DNA of 64,000 bases from Patescibacteria group bacterium (GCA_035289165.1 DATDYA010000008.1:572-64571), one strand, 5' to 3'. Positions 17,040 to 20,822 are shown, numbered from the stretch's first letter. Numbers and translations: made by a program. The notes: generated from the letters alone by a model not told the origin.

Positions 17040-20000
17040 ATGATTGAAAAATACCCAGATTTAGAAAGCCTTCAGTCCGAGGCGATTGAGTTAGACAGGA
17101 GGGGGTCAGAACTAAAACGGAAAGGCCTGGCCTCTAGTATCCAAGAAGGGGTCGACTTAGAAGTCCTTAAAGAAAAAAGTATAAAAAAAGCGAAGAATGA
17201 ACTTAGCCCAACCGAACAAAAAAGAGATGAAAAAAGCGGGGAGGCCTATTATTTTAATCCAGAAGATGAATTTAATACAGAAATTTATTTAGAATTTCTT
17301 CGAAGACGCGATTTAAAAATTGAACAAGCGGCCAAGAGAAATTTATCTGGGAAAAAGTTTTCTTCCCGAGAAGACTATTTACAAGCATTGGAAACCGAAA
17401 TTCATGAACTAAAATATTTTCCTGTATTTTTTATAAGTGCCCCCCATATCGGGGAGGGTGTAAGCGGGGTTTTTCCGGGCGAGCCAACGCCGTTAATGTA
17501 TGCCACCGCAGTTCTTGATCGTTACTTGCGTACGGACACTTTCCCGGCCGCCTCAAGTCCAGAGGTGACGGCAGTGATGAATCCGGACCAATTTAGCGAT
17601 GAGTTTATACAAAACCTTATCGAAAGAGTTAAAAGAGAAAAACCACGAGTGGTTGGTATAAGTAATACTAGCGAAGGTCATTATTTCGCTATCGAAATAG
17701 CTAAAATAATAAAAATGTATTCGCCTGATACTTTAGTAATATTGGGCGGTTCGCACGAGGATGGTCTTAACGCCGATGCCTATCTTTGTTCTAAACTGCT
17801 GTCTAGTGAGGAAAGTGTTACAGCAATCAAAAGCCAGTCTACCTTGGAAGACAAAAAATCTCGAGGTGTTGTTGACATGGTGGTGGCTGGCGATGCCCCC
17901 TACGCCTTAGCCGAAATTTTTAAATTTATTGCCAACAACCGAGATAAGAACAATAATGAAATTATTGAAAATATTTTAAAAAATCGTGGCATATTCAAAC
18001 AAATTGAAGGCTCTGGTAGTTTAACCGTAAAAGGTTTACAAGGTGAAACTGTGGCGGTGAGTTTAAGTGGAACGCCACTCGACTGGAACAAATTACCTTT
18101 TATGTTTCGCGGAAGGCTTACTAGAGAAAACCGGTTTTCACTTTTTGATAACAAAAAAACCGCTCACGTAATGACTCAAATGGGGTGTAAGTATGGTTGT
18201 GGGTTTTGTATGGAGTCTCTAAACGGAGATTTATATCCCATAAATCGTTTTAGACAACCAAGCACTCAAAAGACTAGTAGAGAGTTAGAAATATTAGTTA
18301 AAGATTATGGATACGAGGCTGTATTTTTTGATGATTCAACTTTCACCCAGAGTCCCAGAAAAACCGAGGAGTTACTCGATGAAATAATTAGTCTTCAAGA
18401 ACGGGAAGTTCGATTCGAGTGGGCGTGTCAAACCGCTTTTGCTGACATACCTCGCAGAGATTTTTTAGAAAAAATGAAAAAAGGAGGGTGTACCTATATA
18501 TATTTTGGCTTTGAGCAACTTGAAGAAGCCGTAGAGGGAAGAAGAAAACAGGTTGACCCGCGCCAAGTTGAAAAAGTACTTCTTTGGTGTAAGGAATTAG
18601 GGATTCGTACTGGCGTGTCTTTACAATTTGGCCTGGCTGGGTTGGGTGAATATAAAAGGACTATTGATTATATCGCCGGTCTTTATGACGACGGTTTGGT
18701 GAGTAAAAATTCTATTGCCATAAATATTAACACGCCTTATCCCGGCACTCGAGAATGGTTGGAAATGGAAAACAGGCCGGATTTTAGCCAAAACCTACGC
18801 CGCCATCCACGGTTCGAATCAGCCCATCAACTATCTAATTTAACGATGGAAAAGGTAAATGAAATTTATGAATATGCTCGGACCAAACTTAATGATGGAT
18901 TAATCGGCGTAGAATATAGTAACCAAGAAATTCAAGCACACCTTGAGAGGTATTCTGGTAAATTCAACCAGGATTTTTATTTTGATAGTTCCCAGTATCA
19001 AAAATTTTTAGAAGGAAAATTGGACGGTGGTTTACACTTGAACCATGCTTCAATTTCTAATCACCCCGGTGAAGTTGGGGAAATAGAAGAAGCGGCTAGT
19101 CAACTTAGTAAAAGAGAAAAAGAAAGGTTATTTGAGTCCGCGAGAGATAGGGCCGCGGAACTCGTGGGTGTAGAGAGAAGTGGTGTTATCTTTGCTCGTA
19201 ATACTACAGAAGCCATGGCTTTAATAGTAAAATTAATCGAGCTCACCAAGGGGGACCACGTTGTTCTGACTGACGCTGAAAATCCTTCCATTGCCCGATT
19301 GTTTGAAGTTAATATGGATCATGGAAATCCTGAAGGTGATGATGGTTGGTCAGCCTACCCCACTTTTTATCATCAACGAGGGAAGAGGTATGGGAAGACC
19401 TTGCCGGAACTTACCGGCGTAAATACGGAGACAATTAGCGTGGTTGAAGAAAATTTAGATGATATCTATCGCAACATCGAATCGAGTCTTACGCCGGACA
19501 CGAAGTGTTTTGTAATAAGTCATGTTATTCGTGATACAGGCGAGGAACTACCGGTAAAAGACATTTGTCAGTTTGTAAAGGACGCAAAAAAAAGGATTAA
19601 CCCCGATGATCCAGAAATATTTGTAATTGTCGATGGAGCCCAGGCCTTAGGTAACTTGCCATATGTGGACTTTAAAGATATTGGGTGTGATGCTTATGTT
19701 GGTACACCTCACAAAACCATGGCAAGCACTCCGGTAGGGCTGGGCTTTTTTGATTCTACTAACCCACGAATTAGAAAAAGAATAGAAAAATTGAGCGGCT
19801 TATTTTGGCAAGATCAGCAGGTAGTATTGTCTGGTATGTTTGATCCAGATCTACGTGTAGAACCAAATGTACCCGATAGTCTGGACTACCGAGATCTATT
19901 GGGTTTTAATTTAGCCCTTGATAGGTTAAAAGCGGCGGGGTATGAAAAAGGTGATTTTAGTAAAATCAACGAAAAACGTCGTGAACTAAAAGACACTTTT

Positions 20001-20822
20001 CGTAACATGATACACAAAATTGTCGCTGATCTTGGGCTAGAAATCGCTGAAGTTAAAGATGGATCAGATTTTATCTATTCCTTTACAGTTTTGGGTATAA
20101 ATAATCGCGAATTAGCCCAGGAATTGTCAAACCGTGGCATTTTTGTGTCATATATTGATCGAACGAAATTATCTAAGCAAAAAGAAAATCATACCGGTGA
20201 CGGTGTGATTAGAGTTTCTTTCGGTGTCCTTAATACTGCAAATGAAATTCGAGAACATGCGATTGAGTTTTCTGAGGCCTTAACCCATGTTTCAGATAGA
20301 GAGTATAATGTTTTTGCACAGAAAGCTGAGCAAGCCGTTGTATTAAACCAGCCGAGAGATGTTATATCTATATTTACATGGTTAAAAGAGAGAACAGAAT
20401 CAAAATTTGCTAAGGTCGCCTCCCTAGCCGCTGTTTTGTTGGTTGTGCTAGGTTACCAAATATTAAATCGTGGTCATGGAGAAATAAAAGTTGACCCCGA
20501 TTTTAAACAGGTTAAACTGGTAGAGTTGGAAAAAGAGCGAGATCGTTATAGAGAATTTGAAAGAATGCTTGAAGAGGATGGATACCAGTTTCGTGTTGCT
20601 GAAGAGAGGGGTGAGGCCGGTTTGTTAGTTGAAAAATTCAAATTACTTTCGTCTCTTGATGATGAAGAGACGCTGAACAACATGCTTCATGATGACGATT
20701 CTGTACAGTTAGCTTCTGTGCTTGGTTATACTAAAGAAGAGCGAACGGTTTTGAAAAGTGTGTATGATCAAACAGGTAACAATCGGTTGGGCGAACTTTT
20801 GTCTTTATTGAAAGATGTCTAG
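17040..20822 (+). CDS. 1260-aa multidomain fusion: B12-binding-like domain, radical SAM core, aminotransferase class V-like PLP domain, one TM helix and a charged C-terminal tail
   Basis: Residues about 130-260 (VVGISNTSEGHYFAIEIAKII...LVILGGSHED) resemble the B12-binding domain of class B radical SAM enzymes. MGCKYGCGFCMES carries C-x3-C-x2-C, with rSAM core motifs after it. Residues about 690-900 (VIFARNTTEAMALIV..., VIVDGAQALGNLPYVDFKDIGCDAYVGTPHKTMASTPVGLGFF) match the class V PLP fold, with Lys in the HK motif. A TM helix (FAKVASLAAVLLVVLGYQIL) lies near residue 1120. Confidence 0.6.
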   Translation: MIEKYPDLESLQSEAIELDRRGSELKRKGLASSIQEGVDLEVLKEKSIKKAKNELSPTEQKRDEKSGEAYYFNPEDEFNTEIYLEFLRRRDLKIEQAAKRNLSGKKFSSREDYLQALETEIHELKYFPVFFISAPHIGEGVSGVFPGEPTPLMYATAVLDRYLRTDTFPAASSPEVTAVMNPDQFSDEFIQNLIERVKREKPRVVGISNTSEGHYFAIEIAKIIKMYSPDTLVILGGSHEDGLNADAYLCSKLLSSEESVTAIKSQSTLEDKKSRGVVDMVVAGDAPYALAEIFKFIANNRDKNNNEIIENILKNRGIFKQIEGSGSLTVKGLQGETVAVSLSGTPLDWNKLPFMFRGRLTRENRFSLFDNKKTAHVMTQMGCKYGCGFCMESLNGDLYPINRFRQPSTQKTSRELEILVKDYGYEAVFFDDSTFTQSPRKTEELLDEIISLQEREVRFEWACQTAFADIPRRDFLEKMKKGGCTYIYFGFEQLEEAVEGRRKQVDPRQVEKVLLWCKELGIRTGVSLQFGLAGLGEYKRTIDYIAGLYDDGLVSKNSIAININTPYPGTREWLEMENRPDFSQNLRRHPRFESAHQLSNLTMEKVNEIYEYARTKLNDGLIGVEYSNQEIQAHLERYSGKFNQDFYFDSSQYQKFLEGKLDGGLHLNHASISNHPGEVGEIEEAASQLSKREKERLFESARDRAAELVGVERSGVIFARNTTEAMALIVKLIELTKGDHVVLTDAENPSIARLFEVNMDHGNPEGDDGWSAYPTFYHQRGKRYGKTLPELTGVNTETISVVEENLDDIYRNIESSLTPDTKCFVISHVIRDTGEELPVKDICQFVKDAKKRINPDDPEIFVIVDGAQALGNLPYVDFKDIGCDAYVGTPHKTMASTPVGLGFFDSTNPRIRKRIEKLSGLFWQDQQVVLSGMFDPDLRVEPNVPDSLDYRDLLGFNLALDRLKAAGYEKGDFSKINEKRRELKDTFRNMIHKIVADLGLEIAEVKDGSDFIYSFTVLGINNRELAQELSNRGIFVSYIDRTKLSKQKENHTGDGVIRVSFGVLNTANEIREHAIEFSEALTHVSDREYNVFAQKAEQAVVLNQPRDVISIFTWLKERTESKFAKVASLAAVLLVVLGYQILNRGHGEIKVDPDFKQVKLVELEKERDRYREFERMLEEDGYQFRVAEERGEAGLLVEKFKLLSSLDDEETLNNMLHDDDSVQLASVLGYTKEERTVLKSVYDQTGNNRLGELLSLLKDV

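What the first reader, a model, noticed from the sequence alone, without database searches (positions are those of the whole stretch)
17040..20822. A single 1260-aa polypeptide fusing a B12-binding domain, a radical SAM core and a class-V PLP enzyme
The domain order is a charged N-terminal region, a B12-binding-like Rossmann domain, a radical SAM core (CKYGCGFC), an aminotransferase class-V / cysteine-desulfurase-like PLP domain with a Lys-containing HK motif, one TM helix and a charged tail. I do not recognise this as a described arrangement. B12-dependent class B radical SAM enzymes usually methylate unactivated carbons. The covalently attached fold-type-I PLP domain could provide C-S lyase, epimerase or transaminase chemistry on the same substrate. 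A TM helix near the C-terminus suggests the enzyme works at the membrane. It is co-directional with the Memo/CapA fusion that starts 104 bp downstream.
Basis: partly seen in the sequence, partly recalled or inferred. Interest (0 to 1): 0.8.

Follow-up and report, generated by a model that had tools for sequence, protein, structure and literature searches.

The report
Radical SAM enzyme fused to PLP domain
This is a real, conserved but uncharacterised gene from a Patescibacteria genome that joins a B12-type radical SAM enzyme to a cysteine-desulfurase-like PLP domain lacking its catalytic cysteine, and it probably performs two consecutive steps on an amino-acid-like molecule.

Summary
The 1260-aa ORF at 17040-20822 is intact and the three-domain reading holds. 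It has a cobalamin-binding-type Rossmann domain, a radical SAM barrel (C383/C387/C390) and a class-V PLP domain (Lys892).

It is not an assembly artefact. About 20-25 clusters at 50% identity carry both halves, and the junction itself is conserved. One clade has the permuted order (PLP first). DPANN archaea encode the halves as two adjacent genes, often overlapping by 10 nt.

The radical SAM half folds like TsrM, CysS, TokK and AprD4. The PLP half folds like SufS/CsdA. It lacks the 11-residue catalytic-cysteine loop, so it is not a cysteine desulfurase.

The closest radical-SAM-only relatives sit in NRPS-type clusters, one of them fused to TauD. The archaeal split pairs always face a tandem AsnC/Lrp-type HTH gene.

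My best reading is a self-contained two-step enzyme acting on an amino-acid-like small molecule: a radical step, probably cobalamin-dependent methylation, plus PLP lyase or transaminase chemistry. The substrate is unknown.

The TM helix occurs only in a subclade. The Memo-CapA neighbour is not conserved. No family model or paper describes this arrangement.

The parts
16920..16952 (+). Hairpin plus T-run after the rpoC stop. It probably ends the rpoBC transcript upstream of the fusion gene.
   Evidence: Read by eye: GCCCTCGG..CCGGGGC followed by ATTTTT. It is not in the tool's list because it has a bulge and a 10-nt loop. Weak evidence.
16986..17014 (+). Weak promoter-like site, TTGCCG-17 nt-TAATAT, 25 nt upstream of the ATG.
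   Evidence: Read by eye. It matches 8 of 12 consensus positions, below the scan threshold used. Inference only.
17040..20822 (+). Whole CDS of 1260 aa. It is identical to NCBI HLC69496.1, named 'aminotransferase class V-fold PLP-dependent enzyme [Patescibacteria group bacterium]'.
17040..17411 (+). Charged N-terminal extension, residues 1-124. It is poorly conserved except for a PxDExD...R...I...A..NL stretch around residues 73-105.
   Evidence: Alignment A1 and composition. It has no Pfam hit and was not modelled.
17412..18074 (+). Cobalamin-binding-type Rossmann domain, residues 125-345. The GGSHEDG motif lies at 236-242. There is no DxHxxG motif.
   Evidence: Pfam B12-binding scores 28.4 bits, sub-threshold. 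G236, G237, H239 and E240 are invariant. The AF2 model is confident. Foldseek gives full-length matches to TsrM, CysS and TokK. The TokK N-terminal stretch also appears in the profile search.
18144..18821 (+). Radical SAM core, residues 369-594. It holds the cluster motif C383-x3-C387-x2-C390, FFDDSTFT (429-436), EWACQT (460-465) and NINTPYPGT (562-570).
   Evidence: Pfam PF04055 scores 44.9 bits. The three cysteines are invariant in 28 of 28 sequences. Profile matches to solved structures: AprD4 1.7e-23 and TsrM 8e-11.
18822..19028 (+). Helical connector, residues 595-663, joining the two halves. It is conserved across the family (GVxFxN...DFYF...YL.G).
   Evidence: Alignments A1 and A2. Modelled as helices with pLDDT above 80.
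19029..20321 (+). SufS-fold class-V PLP domain, residues 664-1094.
- RNTTEA at 720-725.
- AENPS at 746-750, where SufS has EHHA.
- A family-specific insert, MDHGNP..D.WS..PT.Y, at 759-777.
- VDGAQALGN at 864-872.
- The Schiff-base lysine, Lys892.
- FVSYIDR at 1035-1041.
- IRVSF Arg1058.
- The catalytic-cysteine loop is deleted.
   Evidence: Pfam PF00266 scores 87.6 bits. Foldseek top hits are SufS, Nfs2 and CsdA at E about 1e-19.
20409..20465 (+). Single hydrophobic helix, residues 1124-1142, present only in a subclade of the family.
   Evidence: Hydropathy scan and alignment A1.
20466..20819 (+). Acidic C-terminal tail, residues 1143-1260. It is shared with P0001, P0002, P0003, P0006, P0009 and P0012 only.
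20848..20869 (+). Terminator-like hairpin 26 nt after the stop codon.
   Evidence: 7 pairs, 5 of them G-C, with tail CCTTGTTTTA.

Best explanation
The gene encodes a genuine bifunctional enzyme whose two halves form one self-contained functional module.

**Radical SAM half.** This half has a class-B-type architecture. Its [4Fe-4S] cluster (C383/C387/C390) cleaves SAM to a 5'-deoxyadenosyl radical, which abstracts a hydrogen from an unactivated carbon of a small, amino-acid-like substrate. The most likely outcome is cobalamin-mediated methyl transfer, as in TsrM, TokK and CysS.

**PLP half.** This half has the SufS fold. It keeps the Schiff-base lysine (K892), the pyridine-N aspartate and glutamine (D865, Q868) and the alpha-carboxylate arginine (R1058). 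It has lost the persulfide-forming cysteine loop. It therefore acts on the alpha-amino/alpha-carboxylate end of the same molecule as a beta-lyase or aminotransferase-type catalyst, not as a sulfur-transferring desulfurase.

**How the steps connect.** The two reactions are consecutive steps of one short pathway that makes or breaks down a modified amino acid. The gene is an accessory gene, sporadic in distribution and prone to horizontal transfer, not a core gene.

**What is shown.** Domain identities, cofactor-binding residues, loss of the cysteine loop, the obligate pairing of the two halves (fused, permuted or split) and the absence of any other conserved partner in bacteria.

**What is inferred.** The small-molecule amino-acid substrate, the order of the steps, methylation as the radical outcome and cobalamin binding.
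For: **The pairing is selected, not accidental.**
- 19 aligned homologues are collinear through the junction.
- P0019-21 carry the permuted order PLP-Rossmann-rSAM.
- At least 9 non-redundant archaeal or metagenomic loci have the radical SAM gene immediately followed by the PLP gene. Five overlap by 10 nt.
- Among 1.84 billion cluster representatives, only 68 score E<=1e-30, and about 20-25 of those carry both halves.

**Folds.**
- The full model has pLDDT 86.7 and pTM 0.82.
- The PLP half matches SufS, CsdA and Nfs2.
- The radical SAM half matches TsrM, CysS, TokK and AprD4 over its full length.

**PLP active site.**
- The lysine, aspartate, glutamine and arginine are kept.
- The SufS 'GHHCAQPLMKWLDV' loop is deleted.
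- The stacking histidine is replaced by asparagine.
- A conserved DHGN insert is added.
- The best single-sequence match among solved structures is C-DES, a cysteine-independent cystine C-S lyase.

**Small-molecule, amino-acid context.**
- The nearest radical-SAM-only relatives (39-43% identity) nest inside the fusion clade.
- These relatives sit in NRPS-type clusters: P0025 fused to TauD among four NRPS genes, P0023 next to a condensation domain, a P450 and an amidase, and Streptomyces and Micromonospora loci with an NRPS module.
- All 8 non-redundant split loci with sequence upstream of the radical SAM gene have a divergent tandem AsnC/Lrp-type HTH gene.
- One PLP-only relative is followed by a LysE-family exporter.

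**Cofactor availability and absence of other partners.**
- At least one CPR locus carrying the fusion uses cobalamin. L008 has a class II RNR and a BtuR/CobA gene within 6 kb.
- No other conserved neighbour turns up across 33 locus groups.
Against: - No substrate, product or cofactor has been measured.
- The Pfam B12-binding score is below threshold in this protein.
- The best sequence-profile match among solved structures is AprD4, which does not bind cobalamin and dehydrates rather than methylates.
- NCBIfam hits to named class-B enzymes are all far below their cut-offs.
- The actinobacterial relatives have no family-type PLP partner in their clusters. The inference from their context covers the radical SAM half only.
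- The model coordinates could not be inspected, so it is unknown whether the two active sites face each other.
- AsnC/Lrp-type regulators and a single LysE neighbour are only circumstantial evidence for an amino-acid substrate.
- The ecological reason for the gene in CPR and DPANN organisms is not explained.
Confidence: 0.4

Rival explanations
1. Sulfur chemistry. The PLP domain is a C-DES-like cyst(e)ine C-S lyase.
- In one version it supplies sulfide or persulfide to the radical SAM half for sulfur insertion or cluster rebuilding.
- In the other it removes the alanyl part of a cysteine that the radical SAM half has first attached to an unactivated carbon. The net result would be radical thiolation using cysteine as the sulfur donor.
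For: - The PLP domain belongs to the NifS/SufS/C-DES branch of class V.
- C-DES, the best single-sequence match among solved structures, works without a catalytic cysteine.
- From general knowledge, class-V-like C-S lyases finish sulfur installation in the ergothioneine and leinamycin pathways.
Against: - There is no catalytic cysteine to carry a persulfide.
- There is no conserved set of extra cysteines for an auxiliary cluster. Only C463 and C484 are conserved besides the CX3CX2C motif.
- No SPASM or twitch domain was detected.
- In a close relative the PLP partner is replaced by a TauD dioxygenase, which argues for substrate tailoring rather than sulfur supply.
Confidence: 0.17
2. A cobalamin-independent radical step precedes or follows the PLP step. 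The Rossmann domain is a B12-binding relic, as in AprD4. The radical SAM half would carry out dehydration, deamination, epimerisation or a rearrangement. This could include an aminomutase-like reaction on the PLP-bound aldimine at a composite interface.
For: - AprD4 is the best profile match among solved structures (1.7e-23).
- AprD4 is also a full-length Foldseek hit.
- A recent review states that AprD4 and ArsL-type enzymes sit in the B12-rSAM sequence network without binding cobalamin.
- The Pfam B12-binding score is sub-threshold.
- The canonical DxHxxG motif is absent.
Against: - The AprD4 profile match covers only the radical SAM core. The Rossmann part matches TokK.
- The top full-length Foldseek hits are the cobalamin enzymes TsrM, CysS and TokK.
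- From general knowledge, class B enzymes normally lack DxHxxG anyway.
- From general knowledge, PLP sits inside the radical SAM barrel in known radical-SAM aminomutases, not in a separate fold-type-I domain.
Confidence: 0.17
3. The enzyme modifies a macromolecule (a protein or peptide side chain, tRNA or DNA) rather than a free metabolite.
For: - From general knowledge, several class B enzymes act on peptides or proteins, for example Mmp10, QCMT and PoyC. One weak NCBIfam hit is to ApyD, a RiPP enzyme.
- Some copies lie in mobile or phage-like regions.
Against: - No RNA-binding, RRE or peptide-recognition domain was detected.
- No precursor-peptide-like or target gene is conserved nearby.
- The PLP domain keeps the arginine that binds a free alpha-carboxylate.
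- No relatives were found in GenBank phages or IMG/VR.
Confidence: 0.08
4. The ORF is an assembly or annotation artefact that joins two separate genes.
For: - Split versions of the pair exist in archaea.
- One close relative (L063) is broken into two overlapping ORFs.
Against: - The reading frame is uninterrupted.
- The identical protein is deposited independently and is seen on 5 contigs.
- More than 20 fused homologues come from different samples and assemblers, and their connector is conserved.
- A permuted fusion also exists.
- The L063 break lies inside the PLP domain, not at the domain junction.
Confidence: 0.01

Closest known systems
Class B (cobalamin-dependent) radical SAM methyltransferases: TsrM, TokK, CysS
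   Same: The order is the same: an N-terminal Rossmann domain, a radical SAM TIM barrel with CX3CX2C, and a C-terminal helical part. Foldseek gives full-length matches with E from 1e-15 to 1e-12 and TM about 0.55-0.6.
   Different: - Sequence identity is only about 15%.
- No NCBIfam family is reached.
- A covalently fused SufS-fold PLP domain is present.
- Cobalamin binding and methyl transfer are untested.
AprD4, the radical SAM 1,2-diol dehydratase of apramycin biosynthesis (PDB 6FD2)
   Same: It is the best sequence-profile match among solved structures (1.7e-23) and a full-length Foldseek hit. It has a Rossmann-like N-terminal domain.
   Different: - AprD4 binds no cobalamin.
- It acts on an aminoglycoside.
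- Its partner is a separate reductase, not a PLP domain.
- The profile match covers only the radical SAM core.
SufS/CsdA/IscS/NifS cysteine desulfurases (class-V, fold-type-I PLP enzymes)
   Same: The fold is the same (Foldseek E about 1e-19, TMt 0.65-0.78). The shared motifs are RNTTEA, VDGAQ, HK and R-x-S-F.
   Different: - The 11-residue loop with the catalytic cysteine is deleted.
- The stacking histidine is replaced by asparagine (EHHA becomes ENxS).
- The asparagine that contacts PLP O3' is replaced by arginine (SHVSN becomes SHVxR).
- A conserved insert of about 20 residues carrying DHGN is added.
- NCBIfam SufS scores 65 bits against a cut-off of 475.
C-DES, the Synechocystis L-cyst(e)ine C-S lyase (PDB 1ELQ)
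   Same: It is the best single-sequence match among solved structures (8e-11). It is a NifS-like enzyme that works without a nucleophilic cysteine.
   Different: - C-DES keeps the stacking histidine, which aligns with the family's asparagine.
- It is a stand-alone enzyme and lacks the DHGN insert.
Radical/PLP cofactor combinations: lysine 2,3-aminomutase (radical SAM + PLP), lysine 5,6- and ornithine 4,5-aminomutases (AdoCbl + PLP), and the DesI/DesII pair
   Same: They bring together the same set of cofactors (SAM radical, B12-type domain, PLP) on one substrate or on consecutive steps.
   Different: The folds and architecture differ. In the aminomutases PLP sits in the barrel or is held by the B12 domain, not in a fold-type-I class-V domain. 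This genome has a separate KamA-family gene at 40255-41184.
B12-rSAM genes of NRPS-type clusters (P0025 rSAM-TauD fusion; Streptomyces, Micromonospora and Catenulispora loci L016-L035)
   Same: They are the closest relatives of the radical SAM half, at 39-43% identity over about 500 residues. They nest within the fusion clade in the NJ tree.
   Different: They have no family-type PLP domain. They are embedded among NRPS modules, methyltransferases or TauD. Their products are unknown to me.

Membership tests
Radical SAM superfamily | CX3CX2C motif that binds the [4Fe-4S] cluster | tested here: met
   C383-x3-C387-x2-C390. The three cysteines are invariant in 28 of 28 aligned sequences.
Radical SAM superfamily | Pfam PF04055 above its gathering score, with a partial TIM-barrel fold | tested here: met
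   44.9 bits against a cut-off of 29.5. Foldseek matches to radical SAM structures.
Class B (B12-binding-domain) radical SAM enzymes | N-terminal cobalamin-binding-type Rossmann domain preceding the radical SAM core | tested here: met
   PF02310 scores 28.4 bits, under the cut-off of 32.1, in this protein. It is above the cut-off in the archaeal homologue, at 34.9 bits. Full-length structural matches to TsrM, CysS and TokK.
Class B (B12-binding-domain) radical SAM enzymes | Actual cobalamin binding and methyl transfer (two SAM consumed, giving SAH plus 5'-deoxyadenosine) | not testable with these tools
   AprD4 and ArsL-type members of the same network do not bind cobalamin. Biochemistry is needed.
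Any named class-B equivalog (HpnJ, ApyD, PhpK, BchE, HpnR, TsrM-type, KedN5 and others) | NCBIfam score above the curated cut-off | tested here: not met
   The best scores are 63 bits against cut-offs of 550-750. The same holds for the archaeal and actinobacterial relatives.
Class-V aminotransferase fold (PF00266) | Pfam score above the gathering cut-off, plus a Schiff-base lysine and the aspartate that contacts the pyridine nitrogen | tested here: met
   87.6 bits against 21.5. K892 and D865 are conserved across the family, with one exception, P0048.
Cysteine desulfurases (SufS/IscS/NifS/CsdA) | Catalytic cysteine on a mobile loop that accepts the persulfide | tested here: not met
   The HMM alignment to B. 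subtilis SufS shows an 11-residue deletion exactly over GHHCAQPLMKWLDV. There is no cysteine between residues 1020 and 1071.
Cysteine desulfurases (SufS/IscS/NifS/CsdA) | NCBIfam SufS or IscS model above its cut-off | tested here: not met
   SufS scores 65 bits against 475. IscS scores 28 bits against 548.
AmmeMemoRadiSam system (as the partner of the downstream Memo gene) | PflA-like radical SAM partner (TIGR04337) and conserved co-occurrence with Memo | tested here: not met
   TIGR04337 is not among the 25 best of 28 NCBIfam families shown for this protein. The protein is a B12-type radical SAM enzyme, not the PflA-like type. No Memo-CapA homologue by BLAST in the other family loci.
Known anti-phage defence proteins (PADLOC) | A significant match to a defence-system model over the whole protein | tested here: not met
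   Only generic class-V hits to SspA and DndA, at about 34 bits over roughly 95 residues.

The most novel reading that the evidence does not exclude
The two halves form one composite catalyst that couples radical C-H activation to PLP chemistry on a single bound amino acid. Two examples are possible.
- Cobalamin-dependent methylation, possibly iterative, of the side chain of a PLP-held or freshly transaminated amino acid. This would build a branched or otherwise non-proteinogenic amino acid in one polypeptide.
- Radical attachment of cysteine to an unactivated carbon, followed by C-S lyase cleavage. This would be a new route to thiolation.

Either would be a new enzyme class. It would be shared, through horizontal transfer, by CPR bacteria and DPANN archaea, and would be related to tailoring enzymes of actinobacterial peptide clusters.
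Probability: 0.2. Interest if true: 0.85.

Novelty: new variant of a known kind. Interest (0 to 1): 0.6.

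Why it matters
- **New chemistry to test.** Radical SAM enzymes with a B12-type domain perform some of the hardest reactions in biology, and most are uncharacterised. Here evolution has joined such an enzyme to a remodelled SufS-fold PLP domain in three architectures: PLP at the C-terminus, PLP at the N-terminus, and translationally coupled separate genes. 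That is strong Rosetta-stone evidence that the two chemistries act together. It gives a small, self-contained target for discovering a new two-step reaction, because one polypeptide needs no other partner.
- **A diverged PLP subfamily.** The work defines a class-V PLP subfamily that would be mis-annotated as cysteine desulfurase or selenocysteine lyase, as the JGI names already do.
- **An evolutionary link.** It connects accessory metabolism of ultra-small CPR and DPANN organisms with NRPS tailoring enzymes of Actinobacteria.

The gene is rare and sporadic. It is therefore unlikely to explain core CPR biology.

Tried and rejected
1. **Assembly artefact.** Rejected. Homologues are collinear, the connector is conserved, permuted and split versions exist, and the identical protein occurs on 5 contigs.
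2. **Cysteine desulfurase or selenocysteine lyase, the name some sources give.** Rejected because the cysteine loop is deleted.
3. **Operon or functional link with the downstream Memo-CapA gene.** Rejected. A terminator-like hairpin follows the stop codon. No Memo-CapA homologue by BLAST in the other family loci. L001 has only a distant Memo/LigB gene on the opposite strand. The two small radical SAM genes in the window are EpmB/KamA-like and RlmN-like, not AmmeMemoRadiSam partners.
4. **Phage or defence role.** One copy lies in a phage-like region and several lie near serine recombinases. However, there are no relatives in GenBank phages or IMG/VR, and PADLOC gives only generic hits.
5. **Conserved neighbours.** All-against-all clustering over 33 locus groups found nothing for the bacterial fusions. 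Only the archaeal split pairs have a conserved neighbour, the tandem AsnC-type HTH gene.
6. **Identity of the actinobacterial NRPS clusters.** A literature search gave nothing usable. Their product remains unknown.
7. **Literature on this fusion.** Five searches found nothing. Two papers on B12-type radical SAM enzymes and RadicalSAM.org that I read do not mention it.
8. **AFDB fold search.** The library was unavailable.
9. **Active-site geometry.** Model coordinates are not exposed, so the distance between the PLP site and the SAM site could not be measured.

Full report
**The observation**

The window holds an uninterrupted ORF at 17040-20822 on the + strand. It starts with ATG, ends with TAG and encodes 1260 aa. 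Pfam finds three domains:
- Radical_SAM at residues 380-539, 44.9 bits against a cut-off of 29.5.
- Aminotran_5 at residues 790-1071, 87.6 bits against 21.5.
- B12-binding at residues 191-239, a sub-threshold 28.4 bits against 32.1.

The motif CKYGCGFC lies at 383-390. The HK motif lies at 891-892, within TPHKTM. The single hydrophobic segment lies at 1124-1142. The next gene starts 104 bp downstream and is a Memo + PGA_cap fusion. The exact protein is deposited as HLC69496.1, 'aminotransferase class V-fold PLP-dependent enzyme [Patescibacteria group bacterium]'. The gene sits among housekeeping genes: recA, ftsK, rpoB and rpoC upstream, and yebC, ruvC and spoU downstream. The description in the finding is therefore correct.

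**The fusion is real**

- A word-indexed search of 5.8 billion proteins returned 30 relatives. About 22 of them carry both the Radical_SAM and Aminotran_5 domains.
- An exhaustive HMMER scan of 1.84 billion cluster representatives gave only 68 hits at E<=1e-30. About 20-25 clusters hold both halves.
- Nineteen homologues align collinearly through the connector at residues 595-663, and the connector itself is conserved.
- Three proteins (P0019-21) have the permuted order, with the PLP domain first.
- In Woesearchaeota and other DPANN-type contigs the two halves are separate genes in the same order. The radical SAM gene encodes 509-549 aa and the PLP gene 412-421 aa. They overlap by 10 nt in five loci.

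Fusion, permutation and translationally coupled split genes together are classic evidence that the two parts work together. They also rule out an assembly chimera.

**Structure**

An AlphaFold2 model of residues 125-1095 is confident, with pLDDT 86.7 and pTM 0.82. The radical SAM half modelled alone gives pLDDT 88 and pTM 0.88.
- Against the PDB, the radical SAM half aligns over its full length with the cobalamin enzymes TsrM, CysS and TokK, and with AprD4. E-values run from 3e-15 to 1e-12 and TM from 0.55 to 0.67.
- A sequence profile of the radical SAM half hits AprD4 best (1.7e-23, core only). TsrM follows, and TokK matches through the Rossmann part.
- A 2026 review notes that AprD4 and ArsL-type proteins sit in the B12-rSAM network without binding cobalamin. 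Cobalamin use is therefore likely but not established.
- The PLP half matches SufS, Nfs2, CsdA and NifS-like structures, with E about 1e-19.

**The PLP domain is not a desulfurase**

Alignment with E. coli IscS (sequence entered from memory) and the HMMER alignment to B. subtilis SufS agree on the following.
- The family keeps the phosphate-binding RNTTEA, the VDGAQ aspartate and glutamine, the Schiff-base lysine and the C-terminal R-x-S-F arginine. From knowledge of SufS/IscS, that arginine binds the substrate's alpha-carboxylate.
- The 11-residue loop bearing the catalytic cysteine is deleted.
- The stacking histidine (EHHA) is replaced by asparagine (ENxS).
- The SHVSN asparagine is replaced by arginine.
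- A conserved insert carrying DHGNP..D.WS is added.

These features are shared by the CPR fusions, the permuted fusions, a second tier of about 1000-aa fusions and the archaeal stand-alone PLP proteins. The PLP partner is therefore one diverged subfamily. A profile search shows a sharp boundary for it, with scores falling from 293 to 150 bits. The best single-sequence match among solved structures is C-DES, a cysteine-independent cystine C-S lyase. The domain should bind an alpha-amino acid. It should act as a lyase, transaminase or similar catalyst, not as a persulfide-forming sulfur transferase.

**Genomic context**

For the bacterial fusions, I ran all-against-all clustering of neighbours, first across 17 family loci and then across 33 locus groups.
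- No conserved partner emerged.
- Serine recombinases recur within 8 kb in four loci.
- One copy lies between phage tail and lysis genes.
- Another copy lies among resolvases and a relaxase.
- No relatives exist in GenBank phages or IMG/VR.

The gene is rare. In one genome per 185,579 GTDB species it was found in 7 Patescibacteria, 3 DPANN archaea (split) and 1 Acidobacterium. It looks like a sporadic accessory gene prone to horizontal transfer.

In the window, a hairpin with a T-run follows rpoC (read by eye). A terminator-like hairpin follows the fusion's stop codon. This suggests a separate transcript.

No homologue of the Memo-CapA neighbour was found by BLAST in any other family locus. 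L001 has only a distant Memo/LigB gene about 1 kb downstream on the opposite strand. That link is not supported.

The hydrophobic helix and acidic tail occur only in the window's subclade. Membrane anchoring is therefore not a core property.

**Clues to the substrate**

- In an NJ tree of the radical SAM halves, radical-SAM-only proteins at 39-43% identity nest inside the CPR fusion clade.
- These proteins sit in peptide-type biosynthetic clusters.
  - P0025 is fused to a TauD dioxygenase, lies among four NRPS genes and has a second B12-rSAM gene nearby.
  - P0023 lies beside a methyltransferase, a condensation domain, a P450 and an amidase.
  - Streptomyces (including S. griseus NCTC13033), Micromonospora, Catenulispora and Amycolatopsis loci show two B12-rSAM genes. 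The one locus I annotated, L024, also has an NRPS module and an FkbM methyltransferase.
- Exchanging the PLP domain for a TauD domain suggests that the partner is a tailoring enzyme acting on the same small molecule.
- All 8 non-redundant archaeal split loci with sequence upstream of the radical SAM gene carry a divergent gene of about 330 aa encoding a tandem AsnC/Lrp-type HTH protein. These proteins are 46-82% identical to one another. From general knowledge, this family typically senses amino acids.
- One PLP-only relative is followed by a LysE-family exporter.
- One CPR locus carrying the fusion also encodes a B12-dependent class II ribonucleotide reductase and a BtuR/CobA adenosyltransferase. 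Cobalamin is therefore used in such organisms.

**Interpretation**

I commit, with confidence about 0.4, to the following model. The protein is a self-contained two-step enzyme acting on an amino-acid-like metabolite.
- The radical SAM half abstracts a hydrogen from an unactivated carbon. It most probably installs a methyl group from methylcobalamin.
- The PLP half works on the alpha-amino/alpha-carboxylate end by beta-elimination, C-S lyase or transamination chemistry.
- The product is probably a non-proteinogenic amino acid or its keto acid.

The rivals are:
- Sulfur chemistry, either cyst(e)ine lyase supplying sulfur or thiolation through a cysteine adduct (0.17).
- Cobalamin-independent radical chemistry of the AprD4 type, or an aminomutase-like composite site (0.17).
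- Modification of a macromolecule (0.08).
- Artefact (0.01).

None of these can be settled without biochemistry.

**Novelty**

No NCBIfam equivalog reaches its cut-off for either half. No solved structure matches the radical SAM half by single-sequence search. Five literature searches and two papers on B12-type radical SAM enzymes and RadicalSAM.org mention no such fusion. Public names are generic or wrong, for example 'selenocysteine lyase/cysteine desulfurase'. I classify it as a new variant of a known kind: a class-B-type radical SAM enzyme joined to a remodelled SufS-fold PLP domain. It is of moderate to high interest for enzymology and lower interest for CPR biology in general, because the gene is rare.

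Noticed in passing
window 20927-22789 (+): A 620-aa fusion of a Memo domain (above the AmmeMemoRadiSam protein B cut-off) with a CapA/PGA_cap metallophosphatase-like domain. It also gives a weak hit to the lasso-peptide epimerase MslH. An N-terminal TM or signal-anchor helix lies at residues 8-26. No AMMECR1 or PflA-like radical SAM partner was seen among the window ORFs I annotated. No homologue was found in the other family loci.
   Followed up: partly
window 35736-36773, 38165-40243 and 40255-41184 (+): This cluster holds a truncated class-II LysRS-like gene (EpmA/PoxA-like), a DUF218 gene, two D-Ala-D-Ala-ligase-like ATP-grasp genes and a short (309 aa) KamA-family radical SAM gene. The last is lysine-2,3-aminomutase/EpmB-like but scores below the NCBIfam cut-offs. 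It is probably EF-P beta-lysylation, but the two ATP-grasp ligases next to an aminomutase could instead make a beta-amino-acid peptide.
   Followed up: partly
window 48499-51705 (-), 7679-9241 (+), 60253-61863 (+), 44589-45683 (-), 25404-26129 (+): These large ORFs (1068, 520, 536, 364 and 241 aa) have no Pfam hit, and the four checked in NCBIfam have none there either. The 1068-aa ORF was not checked in NCBIfam.
   Followed up: no
window 46832-48481 (-): An unusually long (548 aa) ThyX-like protein with two Thy1 stretches. It lies next to a thymidylate kinase gene (45691-46350).
   Followed up: no
L036 430-1446, L056 2724-3713, L072 265-1308, L073 4934-5935, L076 1979-2989, L077 5291-6277, L078 5216-6202, L080 5326-6318 (all on the - strand of the locus): A highly conserved (46-82% identity) protein of about 330 aa with two AsnC/Lrp-type HTH units. 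It is always encoded divergently, immediately upstream of the archaeal split rSAM-PLP pair. It is likely the regulator, and its ligand would point to the substrate. Three of the eight give weak hits to the siroheme decarboxylase NirDL-like HTH domain.
   Followed up: partly
L009 (P0019 locus) 1-19459; L002; L004: Some copies of the fusion lie in mobile contexts. One sits between tail genes (tape measure, Dit) and lysis genes (holin, M15 peptidase) of a phage-like region. Another sits among resolvases, a relaxase and an HNH/AAA pair. Another sits near T4SS pilin genes. Serine recombinases lie within 8 kb in 4 of 13 CPR loci.
   Followed up: partly
L063 1432-3750 and 3741-5120: A close relative (66% identity) is broken into two ORFs (P0005 and P0174) that overlap by 10 nt inside the PLP domain. 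This is a frameshift, a sequencing error or a decaying copy.
   Followed up: no
L024 (S. griseus NCTC13033) 2545-12510; L010 1-18949; L054: These are uncharacterised NRPS-type clusters that carry the closest radical-SAM-only relatives. L024 has two B12-rSAM genes, an FkbM methyltransferase, a C-A-PCP module and a DmpF-like aldehyde dehydrogenase. L010 has four NRPS genes, a thioesterase, a B12-rSAM-TauD fusion and a SerA-like dehydrogenase. Their products are unknown to me.
   Followed up: partly
L055 2057-4270: A stand-alone member of the PLP subfamily (522 aa, no radical SAM gene nearby) is followed 34 bp later by a LysE-family amino-acid exporter gene. Other PLP-only members (L057, L070, L081) also lack a radical SAM neighbour. 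The PLP subfamily may therefore have an activity of its own.
   Followed up: no
window 41-901 (+) and 30516-31640 (-): Two AAA_14/DUF4143 ATPase genes. The first is partial.
   Followed up: no
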